A stretch of 33,805 bases of DNA from a virus: the IMG/VR virus record IMGVR_UViG_3300001748_000001; one strand, 5' to 3'. The position numbers and the translations under genes were made by a program. How positions within the stretch are numbered: position 1 is the first letter of the stretch; each line of letters opens with the position of its first letter. Of the stretch, positions 8,559 through 11,799 are shown piece after piece. A model generated the notes under the pieces. That model had not been told where the DNA came from. It ran no database searches and saw only the letters and a list, made by a program, of their open reading frames with translations.

Positions 8559-9389
8559 ATGATGATTGATAAAAATAGAAAAAAAAGTTTAACAGTAATT
8601 AGTTTAGGTGCTGGTGTTCAAAGTTCTGCAATGGCAATCATGGCAGCTAAAGGAGATTTACCAGAACCAGATTGTGCAATATTTGCAGACACAGGTTATG
8701 AACCTAAAATGGTTTATGCTTACCTTGAATTATTAAAAAAGATTTTACCTTACCCAATTCATATTGTTGCTAAAGGTAATATTAAAAAAGATATGTTAGA
8801 TTCAATAGATAATGGTACTAGATTTCCAACAGCTCCTTTCTTTACTAAGAATGCTGAGACAGGAAAAAAAGGTATGTTGCGTAGACAATGTACTAATGAT
8901 TATAAAATCCAACCTATTAGACAAAAGATAAGACAGCTTTCTAATGTAGCTAAAGGTAAACATTTTCCAAAAGATAAATATGTTGAGCAATGGATCGGCA
9001 TTTCAACTGATGAAATACAAAGAATGAAACCTGCTAGAGACAAATATATTTACAATCGACATCCTTTAATTGAAGCTAAAATGTCAAGACAAGATTGCCT
9101 TGATTATCTTAAAAAGAATGACATCCCTTTACCAGAAAAATCAGCTTGTATTGTATGTCCATACCACAATGATGCTTACTGGCATTTTATGAAAACTGAA
9201 AGACCAAGTGAGTTTGCGGATGCTGTAGAGTTTGATAAAAAAATTAGAACAGGTTCAAGAAACATAAGAGACAAATTATATCTTCATAGAAAATGTATTC
9301 CTTTAGATGAAGTTGAGTTTAATAAAAAGGAAACAGATAAACAACTTGATATGTTCAATAATGAATGCGAAGGAATGTGTGGGGTTTAG
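8559..9389 (+). CDS. PP-loop ATP-pyrophosphatase / PAPS-reductase-like protein with a C-terminal Cys cluster
   Basis: N-terminal SLGAGVQSSAMA (variant of the SGGxDS PP-loop). CIVCPYH and terminal NECEGMCGV cysteines. RBS AGGAG. Confidence 0.65.
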   Translation: MMIDKNRKKSLTVISLGAGVQSSAMAIMAAKGDLPEPDCAIFADTGYEPKMVYAYLELLKKILPYPIHIVAKGNIKKDMLDSIDNGTRFPTAPFFTKNAETGKKGMLRRQCTNDYKIQPIRQKIRQLSNVAKGKHFPKDKYVEQWIGISTDEIQRMKPARDKYIYNRHPLIEAKMSRQDCLDYLKKNDIPLPEKSACIVCPYHNDAYWHFMKTERPSEFADAVEFDKKIRTGSRNIRDKLYLHRKCIPLDEVEFNKKETDKQLDMFNNECEGMCGV

Positions 9390-9390
9390 T

Positions 9391-9612
9391 ATGAAAGAGT
9401 TTGATCGAATGAGACAAAAATTAATTGATCTTGAAGAGATTAATTTTACTAGTGATGAATACCATTCAGTATTTCAGATGGCAGCTTATGATCTGCTTAC
9501 TCACTCTGAAATGAGAAGTTTAATCTTAGCTTTCTGTGAAAAACTTAATCCAGAATTATCACCAAGAGAGTATGATAACATTAAAGATCACCATGTGGAT
9601 TTACCAGAATGA
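9391..9612 (+). CDS. Hypothetical protein (73 aa)
   Basis: ATG 2 nt after the PAPS-reductase-like stop, in frame with track ORF 9307-9612. Confidence 0.45.
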   Translation: MKEFDRMRQKLIDLEEINFTSDEYHSVFQMAAYDLLTHSEMRSLILAFCEKLNPELSPREYDNIKDHHVDLPE

Positions 9613-9788
9613 CCTACTCAACTATCTTTGATGATGCTGAATTAAAATCAGAATTAAAACGATACAAGAGAGAAGTGGATAAGCTAAGAAAAATAATTGA
9701 CATACTTGAAACTGATTTATCTGTCAAAGAGTATGAGATCAGACAACTAAAAGAAAGGTTAAAAAAATATGGAGTTAAAACTTCTTGA
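9609..9788 (+). CDS. Small coiled-coil protein (59 aa)
   Basis: ATGA overlap with 9391-9612. ...ELKRYKREVDKLRKIIDILETDLSVKEYEIRQLKERLKKYG. Overlaps the MTase start by 20 nt. Confidence 0.4.
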   Translation: MTYSTIFDDAELKSELKRYKREVDKLRKIIDILETDLSVKEYEIRQLKERLKKYGVKTS

Positions 9789-10752
9789 TTTATTTAGTGG
9801 CATAGGTGGATTTAGTTTAGGATTAGAATCTACAGGATATTTTAAAACGATTGCATTCGTAGAGAAAGATAAGTTTTGCCGTGAAGTATTAAAGAAAAAT
9901 TTTCCAAACATAACAATAGAAAGTGAGGTTAGAGATGTCAAAGGAGACAAGTACAAAGCAGATATTATTACAGGGGGATTTCCATGCCAACCATTCTCAG
10001 TTGCGGGAAAAAGAAAAGGAACAGATGATGACCGCTACCTCTGGGATGAAACTATTAGAATTATCAGAGAGACAAAACCAAGATGGTTTATTGGGGAAAA
10101 TGTTGAAGGAATTATTAACATCCAAAACGGCATGGTCCTCAGACAGGTGTGTGATGACTTGGAAGAAGAGGGTTTCGAAGTCCAATGTCTTGTTATACCA
10201 GCTAGTGGCATCGGTGCGTGGCATCAAAGGAAAAGAGTCTGGATTCTTGCCTACTCCAAACACAATGGATCACATAGACAGAAAAGGAATGAGACCATCG
10301 AGAGCAGCAACCAATCGAAAGAGTGGTTATCTGTCGGAGATAATCAAGATGTACCCAACACCAACTCAAGACTCGGCAAACGAGAGACAGAACAAATACA
10401 AACAAGGGGGAATGCCACTACCATTAGCGGTAAAGATGTACCCAACACCATCAGCGAGTTGCGAGATGGATGTAGTAGCACCACCAGAAACAGTACAACA
10501 AAACTCTCAAGGGTGGAGTGTGACGAGAGTAAAAACAGGTACAAAGTTTGGTGTGAAGTTGAACGATGTAGTGAACAAGGTACACGAAAAACATGGTGGC
10601 AAACTCAATCCAAATTTTGTAGAATTCCTCATGGCTTATCCACAAGATTGGACAAAGATCGAAAGAACAGAATAAAATCATTGGGTAATTCTATTGTTCC
10701 TCTTATTGCACGACAACTTGGATTAGCTATTATAAAAGCAGAACAAGAATAA
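9769..10752 (+). CDS. DNA (cytosine-5) methyltransferase, ORF1: motifs I-VIII and X in this frame, with a hydrophilic low-complexity middle
   Basis: FSGIGG (I), GGFPCQPFSVAGKRKG (IV), ENVEG (VI), GAWHQRKRVWILAY (VIII), LGNSIVP (X). RBS AGAAAGG. Confidence 0.8.
   Translation: MELKLLDLFSGIGGFSLGLESTGYFKTIAFVEKDKFCREVLKKNFPNITIESEVRDVKGDKYKADIITGGFPCQPFSVAGKRKGTDDDRYLWDETIRIIRETKPRWFIGENVEGIINIQNGMVLRQVCDDLEEEGFEVQCLVIPASGIGAWHQRKRVWILAYSKHNGSHRQKRNETIESSNQSKEWLSVGDNQDVPNTNSRLGKRETEQIQTRGNATTISGKDVPNTISELRDGCSSTTRNSTTKLSRVECDESKNRYKVWCEVERCSEQGTRKTWWQTQSKFCRIPHGLSTRLDKDRKNRIKSLGNSIVPLIARQLGLAIIKAEQE
9935..10675 (+). CDS. ORF2, nested entirely in the +1 frame of the MTase gene: PTP-repeat / LNPxFVEFLMxYPxxWT (TRD plus motif IX-like) protein
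   Basis: GAGG (9925-9928) 6 nt before ATG 9935. FLPTPNTMD, MYPTPTQDS, MYPTPSAS and KLNPNFVEFLMAYPQDWT. A-ending codon usage in its 3' two-thirds matches the rest of the genome. Confidence 0.5.
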   Translation: MSKETSTKQILLQGDFHANHSQLREKEKEQMMTATSGMKLLELSERQNQDGLLGKMLKELLTSKTAWSSDRCVMTWKKRVSKSNVLLYQLVASVRGIKGKESGFLPTPNTMDHIDRKGMRPSRAATNRKSGYLSEIIKMYPTPTQDSANERQNKYKQGGMPLPLAVKMYPTPSASCEMDVVAPPETVQQNSQGWSVTRVKTGTKFGVKLNDVVNKVHEKHGGKLNPNFVEFLMAYPQDWTKIERTE

Positions 10753-11126
10753 TGGCTAGATATACTTATGCCTTTAGCAATGGCAGCTATAACGATTGGC
10801 ACAGAAAATATGATGGTATTGCCATGATTGATGTGGATAGTATTGAAGTTTGTCCTAAATGTTATGAACCTTTGGCAATCCTTGAGACCTGTTTTGACAA
10901 GGGACAAAAATACAAGGCTACAAACCTCTGTAATACCCTTGCTAGACGGCTAAACATACCCTGTTTTTTAGTTTTTTATAAAAATACGACACCAACTACC
11001 CTAACCTTTAGGATCAAGCGAATAACAAGCTCTCAGACAGATTTTCAGTATATGAATGAAGATGAATGGGTATCAATACTGTATGAAATACAGGACCAAC
11101 ACAGAAAGGTATGTAAAATTGATTAA
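10752..11126 (+). CDS. Hypothetical protein with a CxxC motif
   Basis: TAATG overlap with the MTase stop. IDVDSIEVCPKCYEPLAILE... Confidence 0.5.
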   Translation: MARYTYAFSNGSYNDWHRKYDGIAMIDVDSIEVCPKCYEPLAILETCFDKGQKYKATNLCNTLARRLNIPCFLVFYKNTTPTTLTFRIKRITSSQTDFQYMNEDEWVSILYEIQDQHRKVCKID

Positions 11127-11799
11127 AACACGAGGTTTTTTACACTTAACTTATAAGCTATACCATTATTTAGACAAACTTGGCGAAAGAAAGGCAACTT
11201 GTTTATGTGTTTATCTTGCTTTACTTAAATATGCTTGGAAAAAAAACGATTATGTCTGTCATATCCGACATTCAACTTTAGAAAAAGATACTATGCTTTC
11301 AAGACCTACAATCAAACGATGTCTTGACACTTTAGAGACTTTAAATGTTATAAAATCTGTTCGAGGAAAGTCTGGCAAGACCTATGCTGTAAATGATAAG
11401 TTTTTAAAGGAAGAAAAAGCTATGATAGTAAATAATGAGCTATCTAATGTAAATAAAAGAGCTATATTAGAAGAAACAACATACCAATATAATAATATTA
11501 ATAAAATTATAGGTATGTATAGATCAGATAAGGATAAAATGATCTTAGAATTAGCCAAGCTACCCCTGTCAGACCTTAAAGCAGATACTAACAATGTTTA
11601 TTATTGTAAGTTAGCCATTCAAAAGAAAGAGGAACTTGCTCGTGAAAAAAATACAACTTATGTTAGTAGTGATAAGATATTATCAGCTCTTAAAAAGATT
11701 GGGAAGATGTCCAATCCTAGATACCGAGAGAAAGTAGAATTTAATAAAAGAAATTCGCTTGATTGGAAAGGAAGACCTATTGCCAAAGATAAAGATTAG
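11056..11799 (+). CDS. Winged-helix DNA-binding protein, possible replication initiator/organiser; start uncertain (ATG 11056/11083 or TTG 11119)
   Basis: ...CLCVYLALLKYAWKKNDYVCHIRHSTLEKDTMLSRPTIKRCLDTLETLNVIKSVRG resembles wHTH replication-initiator N-domains. Confidence 0.35.
   Translation: MKMNGYQYCMKYRTNTERYVKLIKTRGFLHLTYKLYHYLDKLGERKATCLCVYLALLKYAWKKNDYVCHIRHSTLEKDTMLSRPTIKRCLDTLETLNVIKSVRGKSGKTYAVNDKFLKEEKAMIVNNELSNVNKRAILEETTYQYNNINKIIGMYRSDKDKMILELAKLPLSDLKADTNNVYYCKLAIQKKEELAREKNTTYVSSDKILSALKKIGKMSNPRYREKVEFNKRNSLDWKGRPIAKDKD

What the first reader, a model, noticed from the sequence alone, without database searches (positions are those of the whole stretch)
9769..10752. Methyltransferase locus readable in two frames for ~740 nt: a complete ORF (TRD plus motif IX-like) nested in the +1 frame of a complete C5-MTase ORF
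- ORF1 (9769-10752) carries C5-MTase motifs I (FSGIGG), IV (GGFPCQPFS), VI (ENVEG), VIII (GAWHQRKRVWILAY) and X (LGNSIVP). Its middle ~130 codons are a hydrophilic, low-complexity stretch.
- ORF2 (9935-10675) is in the +1 frame and has its own GAGG-N6-ATG. It is uninterrupted for 246 codons in an AT-rich genome.
- ORF2 encodes FLPTPNTMD, MYPTPTQDS, MYPTPSAS and KLNPNFVEFLMAYPQDWT. As I remember them, these are the PTP-repeat target-recognition region and the motif-IX equivalent (..EWLMGFP..WT) of single-chain phage C5-MTases.
- So the canonical order I-VIII / TRD / IX / X is split between frames: frame 1, then frame 2, then frame 1.
- The same nucleotides spell a recognisable motif in each frame: VWILAY versus GFLPTP (10240-10258), DVPNT versus MYPTP twice, and RIPHGLSTRLD versus FLMAYPQDWT.
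- Third-position usage supports the frame switching. In 9935-10240, frame 1 looks like the rest of the genome and frame 2 is G-ending. In ~10255-10650, frame 2 is A-ending like the genome and frame 1 is C-ending.
- Both off-frame stretches nevertheless remain open. As a rough estimate assuming ~5-6% stops per random codon, that has a probability of about 1e-3 or less for each stretch.
- Hypothesis A: a split MTase whose catalytic and TRD/motif-IX subunits are encoded in overlapping frames. Two-polypeptide C5-MTases exist, for example M.AquI.
- Hypothesis B: one polypeptide made by two recoding events. Speculative sites are CUU-G at 10246-10249 for a +1 shift and A-AAG at 10654-10657 for a -1 shift.
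- Hypothesis C: two assembly indels.
Basis: partly seen in the sequence, partly recalled or inferred. Interest (0 to 1): 0.88.

Follow-up and report, generated by a model that had tools for sequence, protein, structure and literature searches.

The report
Two-subunit cytosine methyltransferase, nested genes
One stretch of this marine phage genome is read in two frames to make the two halves of a single DNA cytosine methyltransferase; one enzyme (M.EcoHK31I, 1995) was already known to work this way, and here the layout proves to be conserved across thousands of phage and prophage genes.

Summary
ORF1 (9769-10752, 327 aa) is a C5-MTase with motifs I-VIII and X. ORF2 (9935-10675, 246 aa) lies in its +1 frame behind its own GAGG-N6-ATG.

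It is not chance and not an assembly error:
- The third frame has 23 stops across the overlap.
- The same two-frame layout occurs in about 70 distinct marine viral contigs with 43 different variable-region lengths, in cultured phages of six host genera, and in 73 of 74 bacterial loci examined.
- The ORF2 start codon and Shine-Dalgarno site are conserved.

Codon-position conservation shows three regimes. ORF1 alone is constrained outside the overlap. Both frames are constrained over motifs IV-VIII. Only the ORF2 frame is constrained between motifs VIII and X, where ORF1 is merely kept open.

Joining the ORF2 motif (LNP..LMxxP..WT) to ORF1's motif X recreates a canonical motif IX-X block (E=1.2e-5 against solved DRM methyltransferases). 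ORF1 alone does not.

Best explanation: a heterodimeric C5-MTase. Alpha is the catalytic domain plus a filler linker. Beta supplies an N-terminal domain, the variable PTP-repeat region and motif IX. This is the M.EcoHK31I architecture.

Recoding and indel hypotheses are rejected. Activity, translation of beta and the structure remain untested; both AlphaFold models failed.

The parts
9769..10752 (+). Alpha gene (ORF1, 327 aa): the C5-MTase catalytic subunit with motifs I-VIII and X. The stop codon is included.
   Evidence: PF00145, 3.4e-57; phrog_363, 1.7e-70; TIGR00675. The exact protein was called as a gene in the source contig.
9793..9810 (+). Alpha motif I, FSGIGG (AdoMet binding).
   Evidence: Translation. 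Amino-acid identity across 62 loci is 0.96 in this block.
9925..9928 (+). Shine-Dalgarno GAGG for beta, embedded in the alpha coding sequence 6 nt upstream of the beta ATG.
   Evidence: GAGG or GAGGAGG is conserved in front of the ATG in about 70 marine loci, and Paenibacillus phage Tadhana has GGGAGG.
9935..10675 (+). Beta gene (ORF2, 246 aa), in the +1 frame and wholly inside alpha. The stop codon is included.
   Evidence: 1018 homologues called as separate proteins; phrog_1008, 3e-28 over the full length; 19,869 representatives at E<=1e-3. It was not called in the source contig.
9935..10243 (+). Beta N-terminal domain (residues 1-103). It is double-coded with alpha motifs IV (9973-9999, GGFPCQPFS), VI (10096-10110, ENVEG) and VIII (10213-10254).
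   Evidence: Pairwise identity at alpha third positions is 0.78 here, against 0.62 in the non-overlapping alpha codons 1-52 at the same amino-acid identity of 0.82. It is conserved down to Paenibacillus, Escherichia and Acinetobacter phages.
10244..10594 (+). Beta variable region: three (hh)PTPxxxD modules (FLPTPNTMD, MYPTPTQDS, MYPTPSAS). It is the inferred target-recognition part.
   Evidence: In alpha numbering the nucleotide identities are pos1 0.60, pos2 0.76, pos3 0.73, so the beta frame is the selected one. The length varies from 75 to 212 codons (43 distinct lengths) among 69 marine loci.
10255..10593 (+). Alpha linker (residues ~163-275): the alpha-frame reading of the beta variable region. 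It is hydrophilic, its sequence is not conserved, and it is only kept free of stops.
   Evidence: Alpha amino-acid identity is 0.24-0.57. The hydrophobic fraction is 0.20 against 0.42 in the core. There are no stops in 69 marine loci, while synonymous permutation of the beta codons gives a median of 6.3. T is depleted at the beta wobble position.
10595..10654 (+). Beta motif IX, GGKLNPNFVEFLMAYPQDWT. It is double-coded with the alpha sequence WWQTQSKFCRIPHGLSTRLD.
   Evidence: A profile of beta motif IX joined to alpha motif X hits the IX-X block of solved DRM C5-MTases (4onj/4onq, E=1.2e-5); an alpha-only profile does not. A Pfam fragment test points the same way. Alpha positions 2 and 3 have identity 0.92 here.
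10681..10701 (+). Alpha motif X, LGNSIVP, downstream of the beta stop. This part is coded in one frame only.
   Evidence: After the beta stop the third-position identity falls back to 0.53.

Best explanation
The locus encodes a heterodimeric DNA cytosine-5 methyltransferase from two nested genes on the same strand.

Alpha (ORF1) is the large catalytic domain.
- It carries the AdoMet-binding and catalytic motifs I-VIII, and motif X at its C-terminus.
- These are joined by a linker of about 110 residues. The linker is hydrophilic and unconstrained in sequence.
- The linker exists only because the ribosome must read through this stretch to reach motif X.

Beta (ORF2) starts at its own GAGG-N6-ATG, 166 nt inside alpha, in the +1 frame. 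It supplies what alpha lacks:
- a conserved N-terminal domain of about 100 residues, inferred by analogy with M.EcoHK31I beta to hold the two chains together;
- a modular, fast-evolving PTP-repeat region in the position of the target-recognition domain;
- motif IX.

Together the two chains would rebuild the usual large-domain plus small-domain enzyme. No restriction enzyme is seen among the flanking genes I checked, so the enzyme would most likely methylate the phage genome to evade host restriction.

Shown: both ORFs, their conservation, the frame-specific constraint, the conserved beta start, and the motif IX/X assignment.
Inferred: translation of beta, heterodimer formation, the role of the PTP region in specificity, and the biological role.
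For: Conservation of the layout
- In 80 of 81 related marine loci (the exception is cut by a contig end), alpha is one open frame carrying motifs IV and X. A +1 ORF carrying the LNP motif is found in 79 of them.
- Among 69 distinct marine loci with 43 different variable-region lengths, the alpha frame has no stops. Synonymous permutation of the beta codons gives a median of 6.3 stops, and the third frame has a median of 22.
- The same +1 nesting occurs in Paenibacillus phage Tadhana, where both CDS are annotated (gp54/gp55). It also occurs in Escherichia, Vibrio and Acinetobacter phages and in 73 of 74 bacterial loci.

Beta start
- The ATG sits at +163 to +166 and is preceded by GAGG or GAGGAGG in about 70 loci.

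Frame-specific constraint
- Identity at alpha third positions is 0.62 and 0.53 outside the overlap.
- It is 0.78 over the beta N-terminal domain.
- Between motifs VIII and IX the least conserved position is alpha position 1, which is the beta wobble position (0.60).

Beta is a family of its own
- phrog_1008 matches at 3e-28 over the full length.
- There are 1018 close homologues called as separate proteins and 19,869 cluster representatives. None has a full PF00145 domain.

Motif IX sits in beta and motif X in alpha
- The joined profile hits the IX-X block of solved C5-MTases at E=1.2e-5, against 1.1 for alpha alone.
- The Pfam fragment test gives E=0.009 for the join and nothing for the other fragments.

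Beta is read to its own end
- The beta tail after motif IX is conserved in proteobacterial loci (TDLxPLxMDKFxxWxxxH).
- In close marine relatives beta runs about 165 aa beyond the alpha stop.

Precedent
- The M.EcoHK31I beta chain is encoded in another frame inside alpha. Alpha has motifs I-VIII and X, beta has motif IX, and both are needed for activity (PMC2836561, PMC3404938).
Against: - There is no direct evidence that beta is translated in this phage, or that either chain is active.
- AlphaFold gave no usable model of beta (pLDDT 40.8 with 64 sequences) or of a single-chain chimera (pLDDT 31.7). The small-domain fold of beta is therefore not shown.
- The beta profile finds nothing among PDB sequences on its own.
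- Full-length ORF1 scores slightly higher against PF00145 than my three-segment chimera does (194.8 against 185.8 bits).
- Part of the amino-acid conservation of the beta N-terminal domain is forced by conservation of alpha motifs IV-VIII. Within-segment codon permutation alone does not make its openness improbable in the single window (P=0.16). The case for that segment rests on the excess third-position conservation, the conserved start and the breadth of conservation.
Confidence: 0.85

Rival explanations
1. A single polypeptide is made by two programmed recoding events. The ribosome shifts +1 after motif VIII and -1 after motif IX, giving a canonical I-VIII / TRD / IX / X chain.
For: The virtual chimera has the canonical motif order. 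The beta-IX plus alpha-X join matches single-chain C5-MTases.
Against: - Recoding does not need the alpha frame to stay open through 75-212 variable codons. It also does not need the beta frame to stay open, conserved and equipped with an SD-ATG 300 nt upstream of the shift. Both are conserved.
- A canonical -1 heptamer occurs between motifs IX and X in only 1 of 135 loci.
- The proposed +1 site (CUU-G at 10246-10249) lies where relatives differ by substitutions and indels: GKESGFLPTP, GKESGLWLTP, GKESGLSDIMYPTP.
- The beta tail beyond the would-be shift is conserved or extended by about 165 aa.
- M.EcoHK31I works as two separately expressed chains.
Confidence: 0.04
2. Alpha alone is the working methyltransferase, with its own region between motifs VIII and X acting as the TRD. 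Beta is a separate overprinted protein with another role, for example a regulator or anti-defence factor. A variant of this idea is that beta contributes only motif IX, as published for M.EcoHK31I.
For: Full-length ORF1 matches PF00145 end to end. The M.EcoHK31I literature places the predicted TRD in alpha. Beta has no Pfam or NCBIfam family.
Against: - The alpha region between VIII and X shows no constraint of its own. Amino-acid identity is 0.24-0.57, and its first codon position is the least conserved, as expected for a beta wobble position.
- That region is hydrophilic, with a hydrophobic fraction of 0.20-0.22.
- Alpha lacks motif IX, and the only motif IX is in beta.
- The variable modules are coherent peptides only in the beta frame.
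Confidence: 0.08
3. The feature is an artefact or decay product: two assembly indels or a pseudogene, or ORF2 is a chance open frame.
For: ORF2 was not called as a gene in the source contig. A few relatives do carry frameshifts: the alpha N-terminus in L001 and the fused proteins P0087 and P0313.
Against: - The same layout recurs in more than 130 independent sequences from different samples, phages and bacterial phyla.
- Both frames show purifying selection.
- A stop-free alternative frame under resampling has probability below 5e-5 with genome codon usage, and 1e-4 for segment B by permutation.
Confidence: 0.01

Closest known systems
M.EcoHK31I (E. coli, YGGCCR; Lee, Kam & Shaw 1995, as described in PMC2836561 and PMC3404938)
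   Same: - It is a C5-MTase made of two polypeptides.
- Beta is encoded entirely inside the alpha gene in another reading frame.
[quoted passage not shown]
- The beta N-terminal part is needed for association with alpha.
   Different: - The published description puts the predicted TRD in alpha. Here the variable region is under selection only in the beta frame.
- Beta is longer here (246 aa against 176 aa) and its N-terminal domain is double-coded with alpha motifs IV-VIII.
- This locus has no restriction enzyme among the flanking genes I checked in a phage genome, whereas M.EcoHK31I belongs to a restriction-modification system.
- Sequence homology to M.EcoHK31I could not be tested. It may be a member of the same large family.
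Paenibacillus larvae phage nested methyltransferase pair (e.g. Tadhana gp54/gp55, NC_048691)
   Same: - It is homologous: tblastn of ORF2 gives 31% identity over 94% of the query, E=6e-19.
- Beta lies in the +1 frame inside alpha, with an SD-ATG at +202.
- Both CDS are annotated as DNA methyltransferase.
   Different: - The host (Firmicutes) and the variable region differ.
- Neither of the two comparative-genomics papers found discusses the nesting. One was checked by term search (PMC6070908); the other was seen only as an abstract start (PMC5056774).
M.AquI (two-subunit C5-MTase)
   Same: It is a C5-MTase split within the variable region into two polypeptides that assemble.
   Different: [quoted passage not shown]
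- Here motif X stays on alpha, and beta is nested out of frame within alpha.
- A Paraburkholderia variant found here (L139, L142) does carry motif X in the beta frame and is closer to the M.AquI split.
Canonical monomeric C5-MTases (M.HhaI, M.HaeIII) and the DRM/Dnmt3-type motif IX-X block
   Same: - Alpha residues 3-163 align with M.HhaI 12-172 (E=6e-23).
- Beta motif IX joined to alpha motif X aligns with the DRM sequence L.P.EVEMLLGFP.NHT...RYKSLGNS.
   Different: Those enzymes are one chain read in one frame. Here the small-domain part is read in another frame and released as a separate protein.

Membership tests
C5 DNA methyltransferase (PF00145 / TIGR00675) | Motifs I (FxGxG), IV (PCQ, catalytic Cys), VI (ENV) and VIII (QxRxR) in one chain | tested here: met
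   ORF1 matches PF00145 at 3.4e-57, TIGR00675 at 164 bits against a cut-off of 100.65, and M.HhaI at 6e-23 over motifs I-VIII.
C5 DNA methyltransferase (PF00145 / TIGR00675) | Motifs IX and X in the same chain as motifs I-VIII | tested here: not met
   Motif X (LGNSIVP) is in ORF1. The motif IX equivalent is only in ORF2. The alpha-only C-terminal profile or fragment gives no significant hit, while the joined one does.
M.EcoHK31I-type nested two-polypeptide C5-MTase | Beta ORF lies entirely within the alpha gene, on the same strand, in a different frame | tested here: met
   ORF2 (9935-10675) lies inside ORF1 (9769-10752) in the +1 frame. The layout is conserved in more than 130 loci.
M.EcoHK31I-type nested two-polypeptide C5-MTase | Alpha has motifs I-VIII and X; beta supplies motif IX | tested here: met
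M.EcoHK31I-type nested two-polypeptide C5-MTase | TRD located in alpha (as published for M.EcoHK31I) | tested here: not met
   The region between motifs VIII and X is constrained only in the beta frame. The alpha reading is unconserved and hydrophilic.
M.EcoHK31I-type nested two-polypeptide C5-MTase | Both polypeptides are made and both are required for methylation | not testable with these tools
   This needs expression and methylation assays. Only indirect support is available: the conserved SD-ATG and purifying selection on both frames.
M.EcoHK31I-type nested two-polypeptide C5-MTase | Sequence homology to M.EcoHK31I alpha and beta | not tested
The 1995 paper (PMC306636) is not held and no supplement text is held.
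phrog_363 / phrog_1008 phage DNA methyltransferase families | Full-length profile match | tested here: met
   ORF1 matches phrog_363 at 1.7e-70. ORF2 matches phrog_1008 at 3e-28, covering residues 3-242.
M.AquI-type split C5-MTase | Motifs IX and X together on the small subunit | tested here: not met
   Motif X is in the alpha frame, downstream of the beta stop.
Programmed ribosomal frameshift gene | A conserved slippery site at the frame junctions, with the zero frame closing soon after the shift site | tested here: not met
   An X_XXY_YYZ heptamer occurs in 1 of 135 loci. The +1 junction is not conserved. Both frames stay open for hundreds of nucleotides beyond the junctions.

The most novel reading that the evidence does not exclude
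This locus would be one member of a very large and so far unmodelled family of double-coded C5-MTase genes in phages and prophages.
- The beta profile finds about 20,000 cluster representatives at 50% identity, and beta has no Pfam or NCBIfam model.
- In this family 740-900 nt are read in two frames over wide phylogenetic distances.
- The whole small domain (N-terminal docking domain, modular PTP recognition repeats and motif IX) would be a separate subunit.
- The alpha linker would be a rare case of protein sequence selected only to contain no stop codon.
- The variable modules would be exchanged between phages while satisfying both frames.

If this has not been described, it would be one of the longest and most widespread same-strand overlapping gene pairs in prokaryotic viruses. 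It might also mean the published placement of the TRD in M.EcoHK31I alpha needs revision.
Probability: 0.4. Interest if true: 0.75.

Novelty: new variant of a known kind. Interest (0 to 1): 0.62.

Why it matters
- Long same-strand overlapping genes are considered rare in prokaryotes and their viruses, and standard gene callers suppress them. Beta was not called in this contig.
- Here both products are halves of one enzyme, so the overlap has a clear structural logic. The small domain of a C5-MTase is an insertion between two parts of the large domain. Reading the insertion in another frame releases it as a separate, exchangeable specificity subunit while motif X stays attached to the catalytic chain.
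- Annotation pipelines would gain from a beta-family model. Methylome predictions for marine phages should treat the beta variable region, not the alpha linker, as the likely specificity determinant.
- The family offers a natural data set for studying evolution under double-frame constraint.

Tried and rejected
- AlphaFold2 of beta with a 64-sequence alignment gave pLDDT 40.8. A single-sequence alpha-beta-alpha chimera gave pLDDT 31.7. Both were too poor for fold search, so no Foldseek run was made.
- The beta profile against PDB sequences gave no hit even at E<=10.
- NCBIfam and Pfam on ORF2 gave nothing.
- The search for related loci on genome contigs with the mixed alignment A1 failed because no stretch was conserved enough. 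It was repeated successfully with a single Acinetobacter-phage beta.
- I looked for single-chain relatives with I-VIII, TRD and IX in one frame. The only candidates were P0087 and P0313. P0087 switches frame inside motif IV and loses the PCQ cysteine. P0313 switches just after motif I. Both are therefore frameshift fusions, not true single chains. Ten long beta-family proteins had no full PF00145 domain.
- Literature searches for a description of the family-wide nesting found only the M.EcoHK31I work, plus Paenibacillus phage papers that list two methyltransferases without comment. The 1995 M.EcoHK31I paper is not held.
- tblastn of beta against plasmids gave only 4 records and was not informative about M.EcoHK31I.
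Full report
**1. What is in the sequence**

The window is a 33,805-nt contig at 32% GC. It resembles HTVC010P-type Pelagibacter podophages.

- ORF1 (9769-10752, 327 aa) is a cytosine-5 DNA methyltransferase. It matches PF00145 at 3.4e-57, TIGR00675 at 6e-48 and phrog_363 at 1.7e-70. Residues 3-163 align with M.HhaI motifs I-VIII at 6e-23.
- ORF2 lies in the +1 frame. It is open from 9923, has an ATG at 9935 preceded by GAGG at 9925-9928, and ends with TAA at 10673-10675. It is 246 codons long and lies wholly inside ORF1.

**2. It is not chance**

- The third frame has 23 stops across the 741-nt overlap; the two coding frames have none.
- Redrawing synonymous codons from the window's own usage while keeping one protein fixed gives a mean of 6.9 stops (segment 9934-10245, ORF2 frame) and 16 stops (10247-10672, ORF1 frame). 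No stop-free draw occurred in 20,000.
- The stricter within-segment permutation gives P=0.16 and P=1e-4 respectively.
- Base usage shows how stops are avoided. T at the ORF2 wobble position, which would begin an ORF1-frame stop, falls from the genomic 0.40 to 0.17. C at the ORF1 wobble position rises from 0.07 to 0.22-0.25.

**3. Conservation**

- A scan of viral contigs with ORF1 found 171 relatives, of which 80 were kept.
- In 80 of 81 related marine loci (L001-L081; the exception is cut by a contig end), motifs IV and X sit in one open frame. A +1 ORF carrying the LNP..LM motif was found in 79 of them.
- Among 69 distinct marine sequences, the stretch between motif VIII and the LNP motif has 43 different lengths (75-212 codons). 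The ORF1 frame never contains a stop there. Permuting synonymous ORF2 codons gives a median of 6.3 stops, with P(0) at most 0.02 per locus. The third frame has a median of 22 stops.
- The ORF2 ATG sits at +163 to +166 from the ORF1 ATG and follows GAGG or GAGGAGG in about 70 loci.
- tblastn of ORF2 finds 77 cultured-phage records, from Paenibacillus larvae, Escherichia, Vibrio, Lacticaseibacillus, Bacteroides, Klebsiella and Acinetobacter phages. In the four examined, the match lies in the +1 frame inside the annotated C5-MTase CDS. In Paenibacillus phage Tadhana both nested CDS are annotated, as gp54 and gp55.
- A scan of bacterial genomes with the Acinetobacter-phage beta found 180 relatives. 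In 73 of 74 loci carrying both motifs, beta is +1 inside alpha. In 67 of these, motif X is in the same alpha frame.
- The beta profile finds 19,869 cluster representatives at E<=1e-3 among 1.84 billion.
- Assembly error, pseudogene and chance are therefore excluded.

**4. Which frame is under selection where**

I used a codon alignment of 62 distinct marine loci. The three nucleotide columns give pairwise identity at ORF1 codon positions 1, 2 and 3.

| Region | ORF1 codons | Amino-acid identity | Pos1 | Pos2 | Pos3 |
|---|---|---|---|---|---|
| Before ORF2 (non-overlap) | 1-52 | 0.82 | 0.82 | 0.88 | 0.62 |
| Motifs IV-VIII, overlapping the ORF2 N-terminus | 56-160 | 0.82 | 0.84 | 0.92 | 0.78 |
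| Between motif VIII and the LNP motif | 161-285 | 0.49 | 0.60 | 0.76 | 0.73 |
| LNP / motif IX zone | 286-302 | 0.79 | 0.78 | 0.92 | 0.92 |
| After the ORF2 stop | 303-327 | 0.77 | 0.77 | 0.89 | 0.53 |

- Outside the overlap, the pattern is that of ordinary single-frame coding in ORF1.
- Over codons 56-160, amino-acid identity is the same as in codons 1-52 but third-position identity is higher, reaching 0.89-0.92 over codons 131-150. The ORF1 wobble position is the ORF2 second codon position, so ORF2 is also constrained here.
- Between motif VIII and the LNP motif, the least conserved position is the ORF2 wobble position. ORF2 is the selected frame there, and ORF1 amino-acid identity falls to 0.24-0.57.
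- The ORF1 reading of that stretch is hydrophilic: hydrophobic fraction 0.20 in the window and a median of 0.22 across 133 loci, against 0.42-0.43 in the core. It is kept open but is otherwise free to vary.

**5. What the two products are**

- ORF2 relatives are called as independent proteins starting at the same N-terminus. They match phrog_1008 ("DNA methyltransferase") over their full length.
- They have no Pfam or NCBIfam family.
- None carries a full PF00145 domain. The two apparent fusions are P0087, which changes frame inside motif IV, and P0313, which changes frame just after motif I.
- The family alignment shows three parts:
  - a conserved N-terminal domain of about 100 residues (TSG.K.LE...G...KML..LL....W.S..C..TWK..VSKSNVLLFQL.ASV.GIKGKESG);
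  - a variable number of (hh)PTPxxxD modules;
  - an invariant G.LNP.F.E.LMG.P..WT.
- A profile built by joining that last motif to the ORF1 tail hits the motif IX-X block of solved C5-MTases: tobacco DRM 4onj/4onq at E=1.2e-5 and DRM2 at 1.3e-3. The aligned DRM sequence is L.P.EVEMLLGFP.NHT...RYKSLGNS.
- The ORF1-only profile of the same nucleotides reaches only E=1.1, over motif X alone.
- A Pfam fragment test agrees. The joined fragment hits PF00145 positions 268-324 (E=0.009); alpha-only, the alpha tail and beta-only give nothing.

**6. Mechanism**

- The best-supported model is a heterodimer: alpha is the catalytic large domain, and beta is the small domain plus an N-terminal domain.
- This is the architecture established experimentally for M.EcoHK31I. 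There beta is encoded entirely in another frame within alpha, alpha has motifs I-VIII and X, beta has motif IX, both are required, and N-terminal deletions of beta weaken association (PMC2836561, PMC3404938).
- By analogy I infer that the beta N-terminal domain docks on alpha. This is not shown.
- The flanking genes I checked are a PAPS-reductase-like gene and a replication-initiator-like gene, not a restriction enzyme. An orphan anti-restriction role in the phage is therefore the likely biology (inferred).

**7. Rivals**

- *Double recoding into one chain.*
  - It would need neither off-frame stretch to stay open and conserved, nor an SD-ATG 300 nt upstream of the shift.
  - A -1 heptamer occurs in 1 of 135 loci, and the proposed +1 site lies in an indel-rich stretch.
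  - The beta tail beyond the supposed return shift is conserved in proteobacterial loci.
  - In close marine relatives the tail is extended by about 165 aa past the alpha stop.
- *Alpha alone being functional, with its own TRD.* This is contradicted by the lack of alpha-frame constraint between motifs VIII and X.
- *Artefact.* This is excluded by the comparative data.

**8. Comparison with what is known, and novelty**

- The kind is known: M.EcoHK31I since 1995. Homologous nested pairs are already annotated in Paenibacillus phage genomes.
- Three things differ from the published description.
  - The variable, TRD-position region is selected in the beta frame, not the alpha frame.
  - The beta N-terminal domain is double-coded with the catalytic motifs.
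  - The arrangement is a very large family across phages and prophages of many phyla.
- In this paper library I found no description of that breadth. The library is incomplete.
- I could not test whether M.EcoHK31I itself belongs to the family.
- I therefore rate the locus as a new variant of a known kind, with moderate to high interest.

**9. Limits**

- No structural support was obtained: both AlphaFold models were of very low confidence, and the beta profile alone finds nothing in the PDB.
- Translation of beta, heterodimer formation, target specificity and biological role are inferences.

Noticed in passing
L002 1652-2902; proteins P0001-P0012, P0028, P0050, P0094: In close marine relatives (about 90% identity), beta has no stop at the position of the window's TAA. 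It continues about 165 aa past the alpha stop, double-coding motif X on the way (KSLGNSIFP in alpha, KVSETQSFH in beta). The extra C-terminal domain contains another RTPTAMD motif and has no PHROG hit. The window lacks this extension.
   Followed up: partly
L086 1497-2408 (Acinetobacter seifertii) and many Pseudomonas/Acinetobacter loci L086-L119: In proteobacterial prophage versions the beta ATG lies 4 nt after the alpha ATG (alpha MNELALFAGAGGG, beta MSWLFSQALVAEY). Both starts presumably share one ribosome-binding site, and about 900 nt, nearly the whole gene including motif I, is read in two frames.
   Followed up: partly
L139 1357-2589 and L142 (Paraburkholderia caffeinilytica, chromosomes 1 and 2): This is a variant architecture. 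The alpha frame closes after motif VIII (209-aa open stretch). The beta frame (411-aa open stretch) carries motif IX and, about 60 residues later, motif X (RIEALGNGQVP). It is an M.AquI-like split that still overlaps. It is present in two copies, so it is unlikely to be a sequencing error.
   Followed up: no
L120 1461-2426 and L144 1365-2351: In two unrelated MAGs the alpha frame is broken by a single in-frame stop between motif VIII and motif X, while beta is intact. This could be decay, readthrough or a three-piece enzyme.
   Followed up: no
L001 (KT997847) 1971-2899: This is the closest GenBank phage (Chosvirus KM23C739). The record annotates the alpha N-terminus (80 aa) and beta as two methyltransferase CDS. 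The alpha frame there is shifted after motif I and the rest of alpha is unannotated.
   Followed up: partly
window 9609-9788, 10750-10754 and 11056-11126: The genes are tightly packed. The upstream 59-aa ORF overlaps the alpha start by 20 nt. The alpha stop and the next ATG share one base (TAATG). The 124-aa ORF (10752-11126), which matches hypothetical proteins of cultured pelagiphages, overlaps by 71 nt the start of a replication-initiator-like ORF (11056-11799; phrog_678, 8e-9).
   Followed up: no
window 8559-9389: A PAPS-reductase-like gene (phrog_424, 1.9e-54) lies about 380 nt upstream of the methyltransferase. A 101-aa ORF (9307-9612) overlaps its 3' end by 83 nt in another frame.
   Followed up: no
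PDB 8dfu_B: The chimeric motif IX-X profile also hit an 84-aa chain deposited as 'Pilin protein' (E=7.7e-4), aligning ...WSIGWT.........RIKRVGNS.... This is probably chance, but it is unexplained.
   Followed up: no
proteins P0016, P0080, P0118 against window ORF2: The number and order of PTP modules differ between otherwise 60-80% identical beta proteins, from about 2 to 6 or more modules, and some modules are duplicated nearly verbatim in P0118. This suggests module shuffling or duplication. It recalls the tandem TRDs of multispecific Bacillus phage MTases, but that comparison is from memory and was not tested.
   Followed up: no
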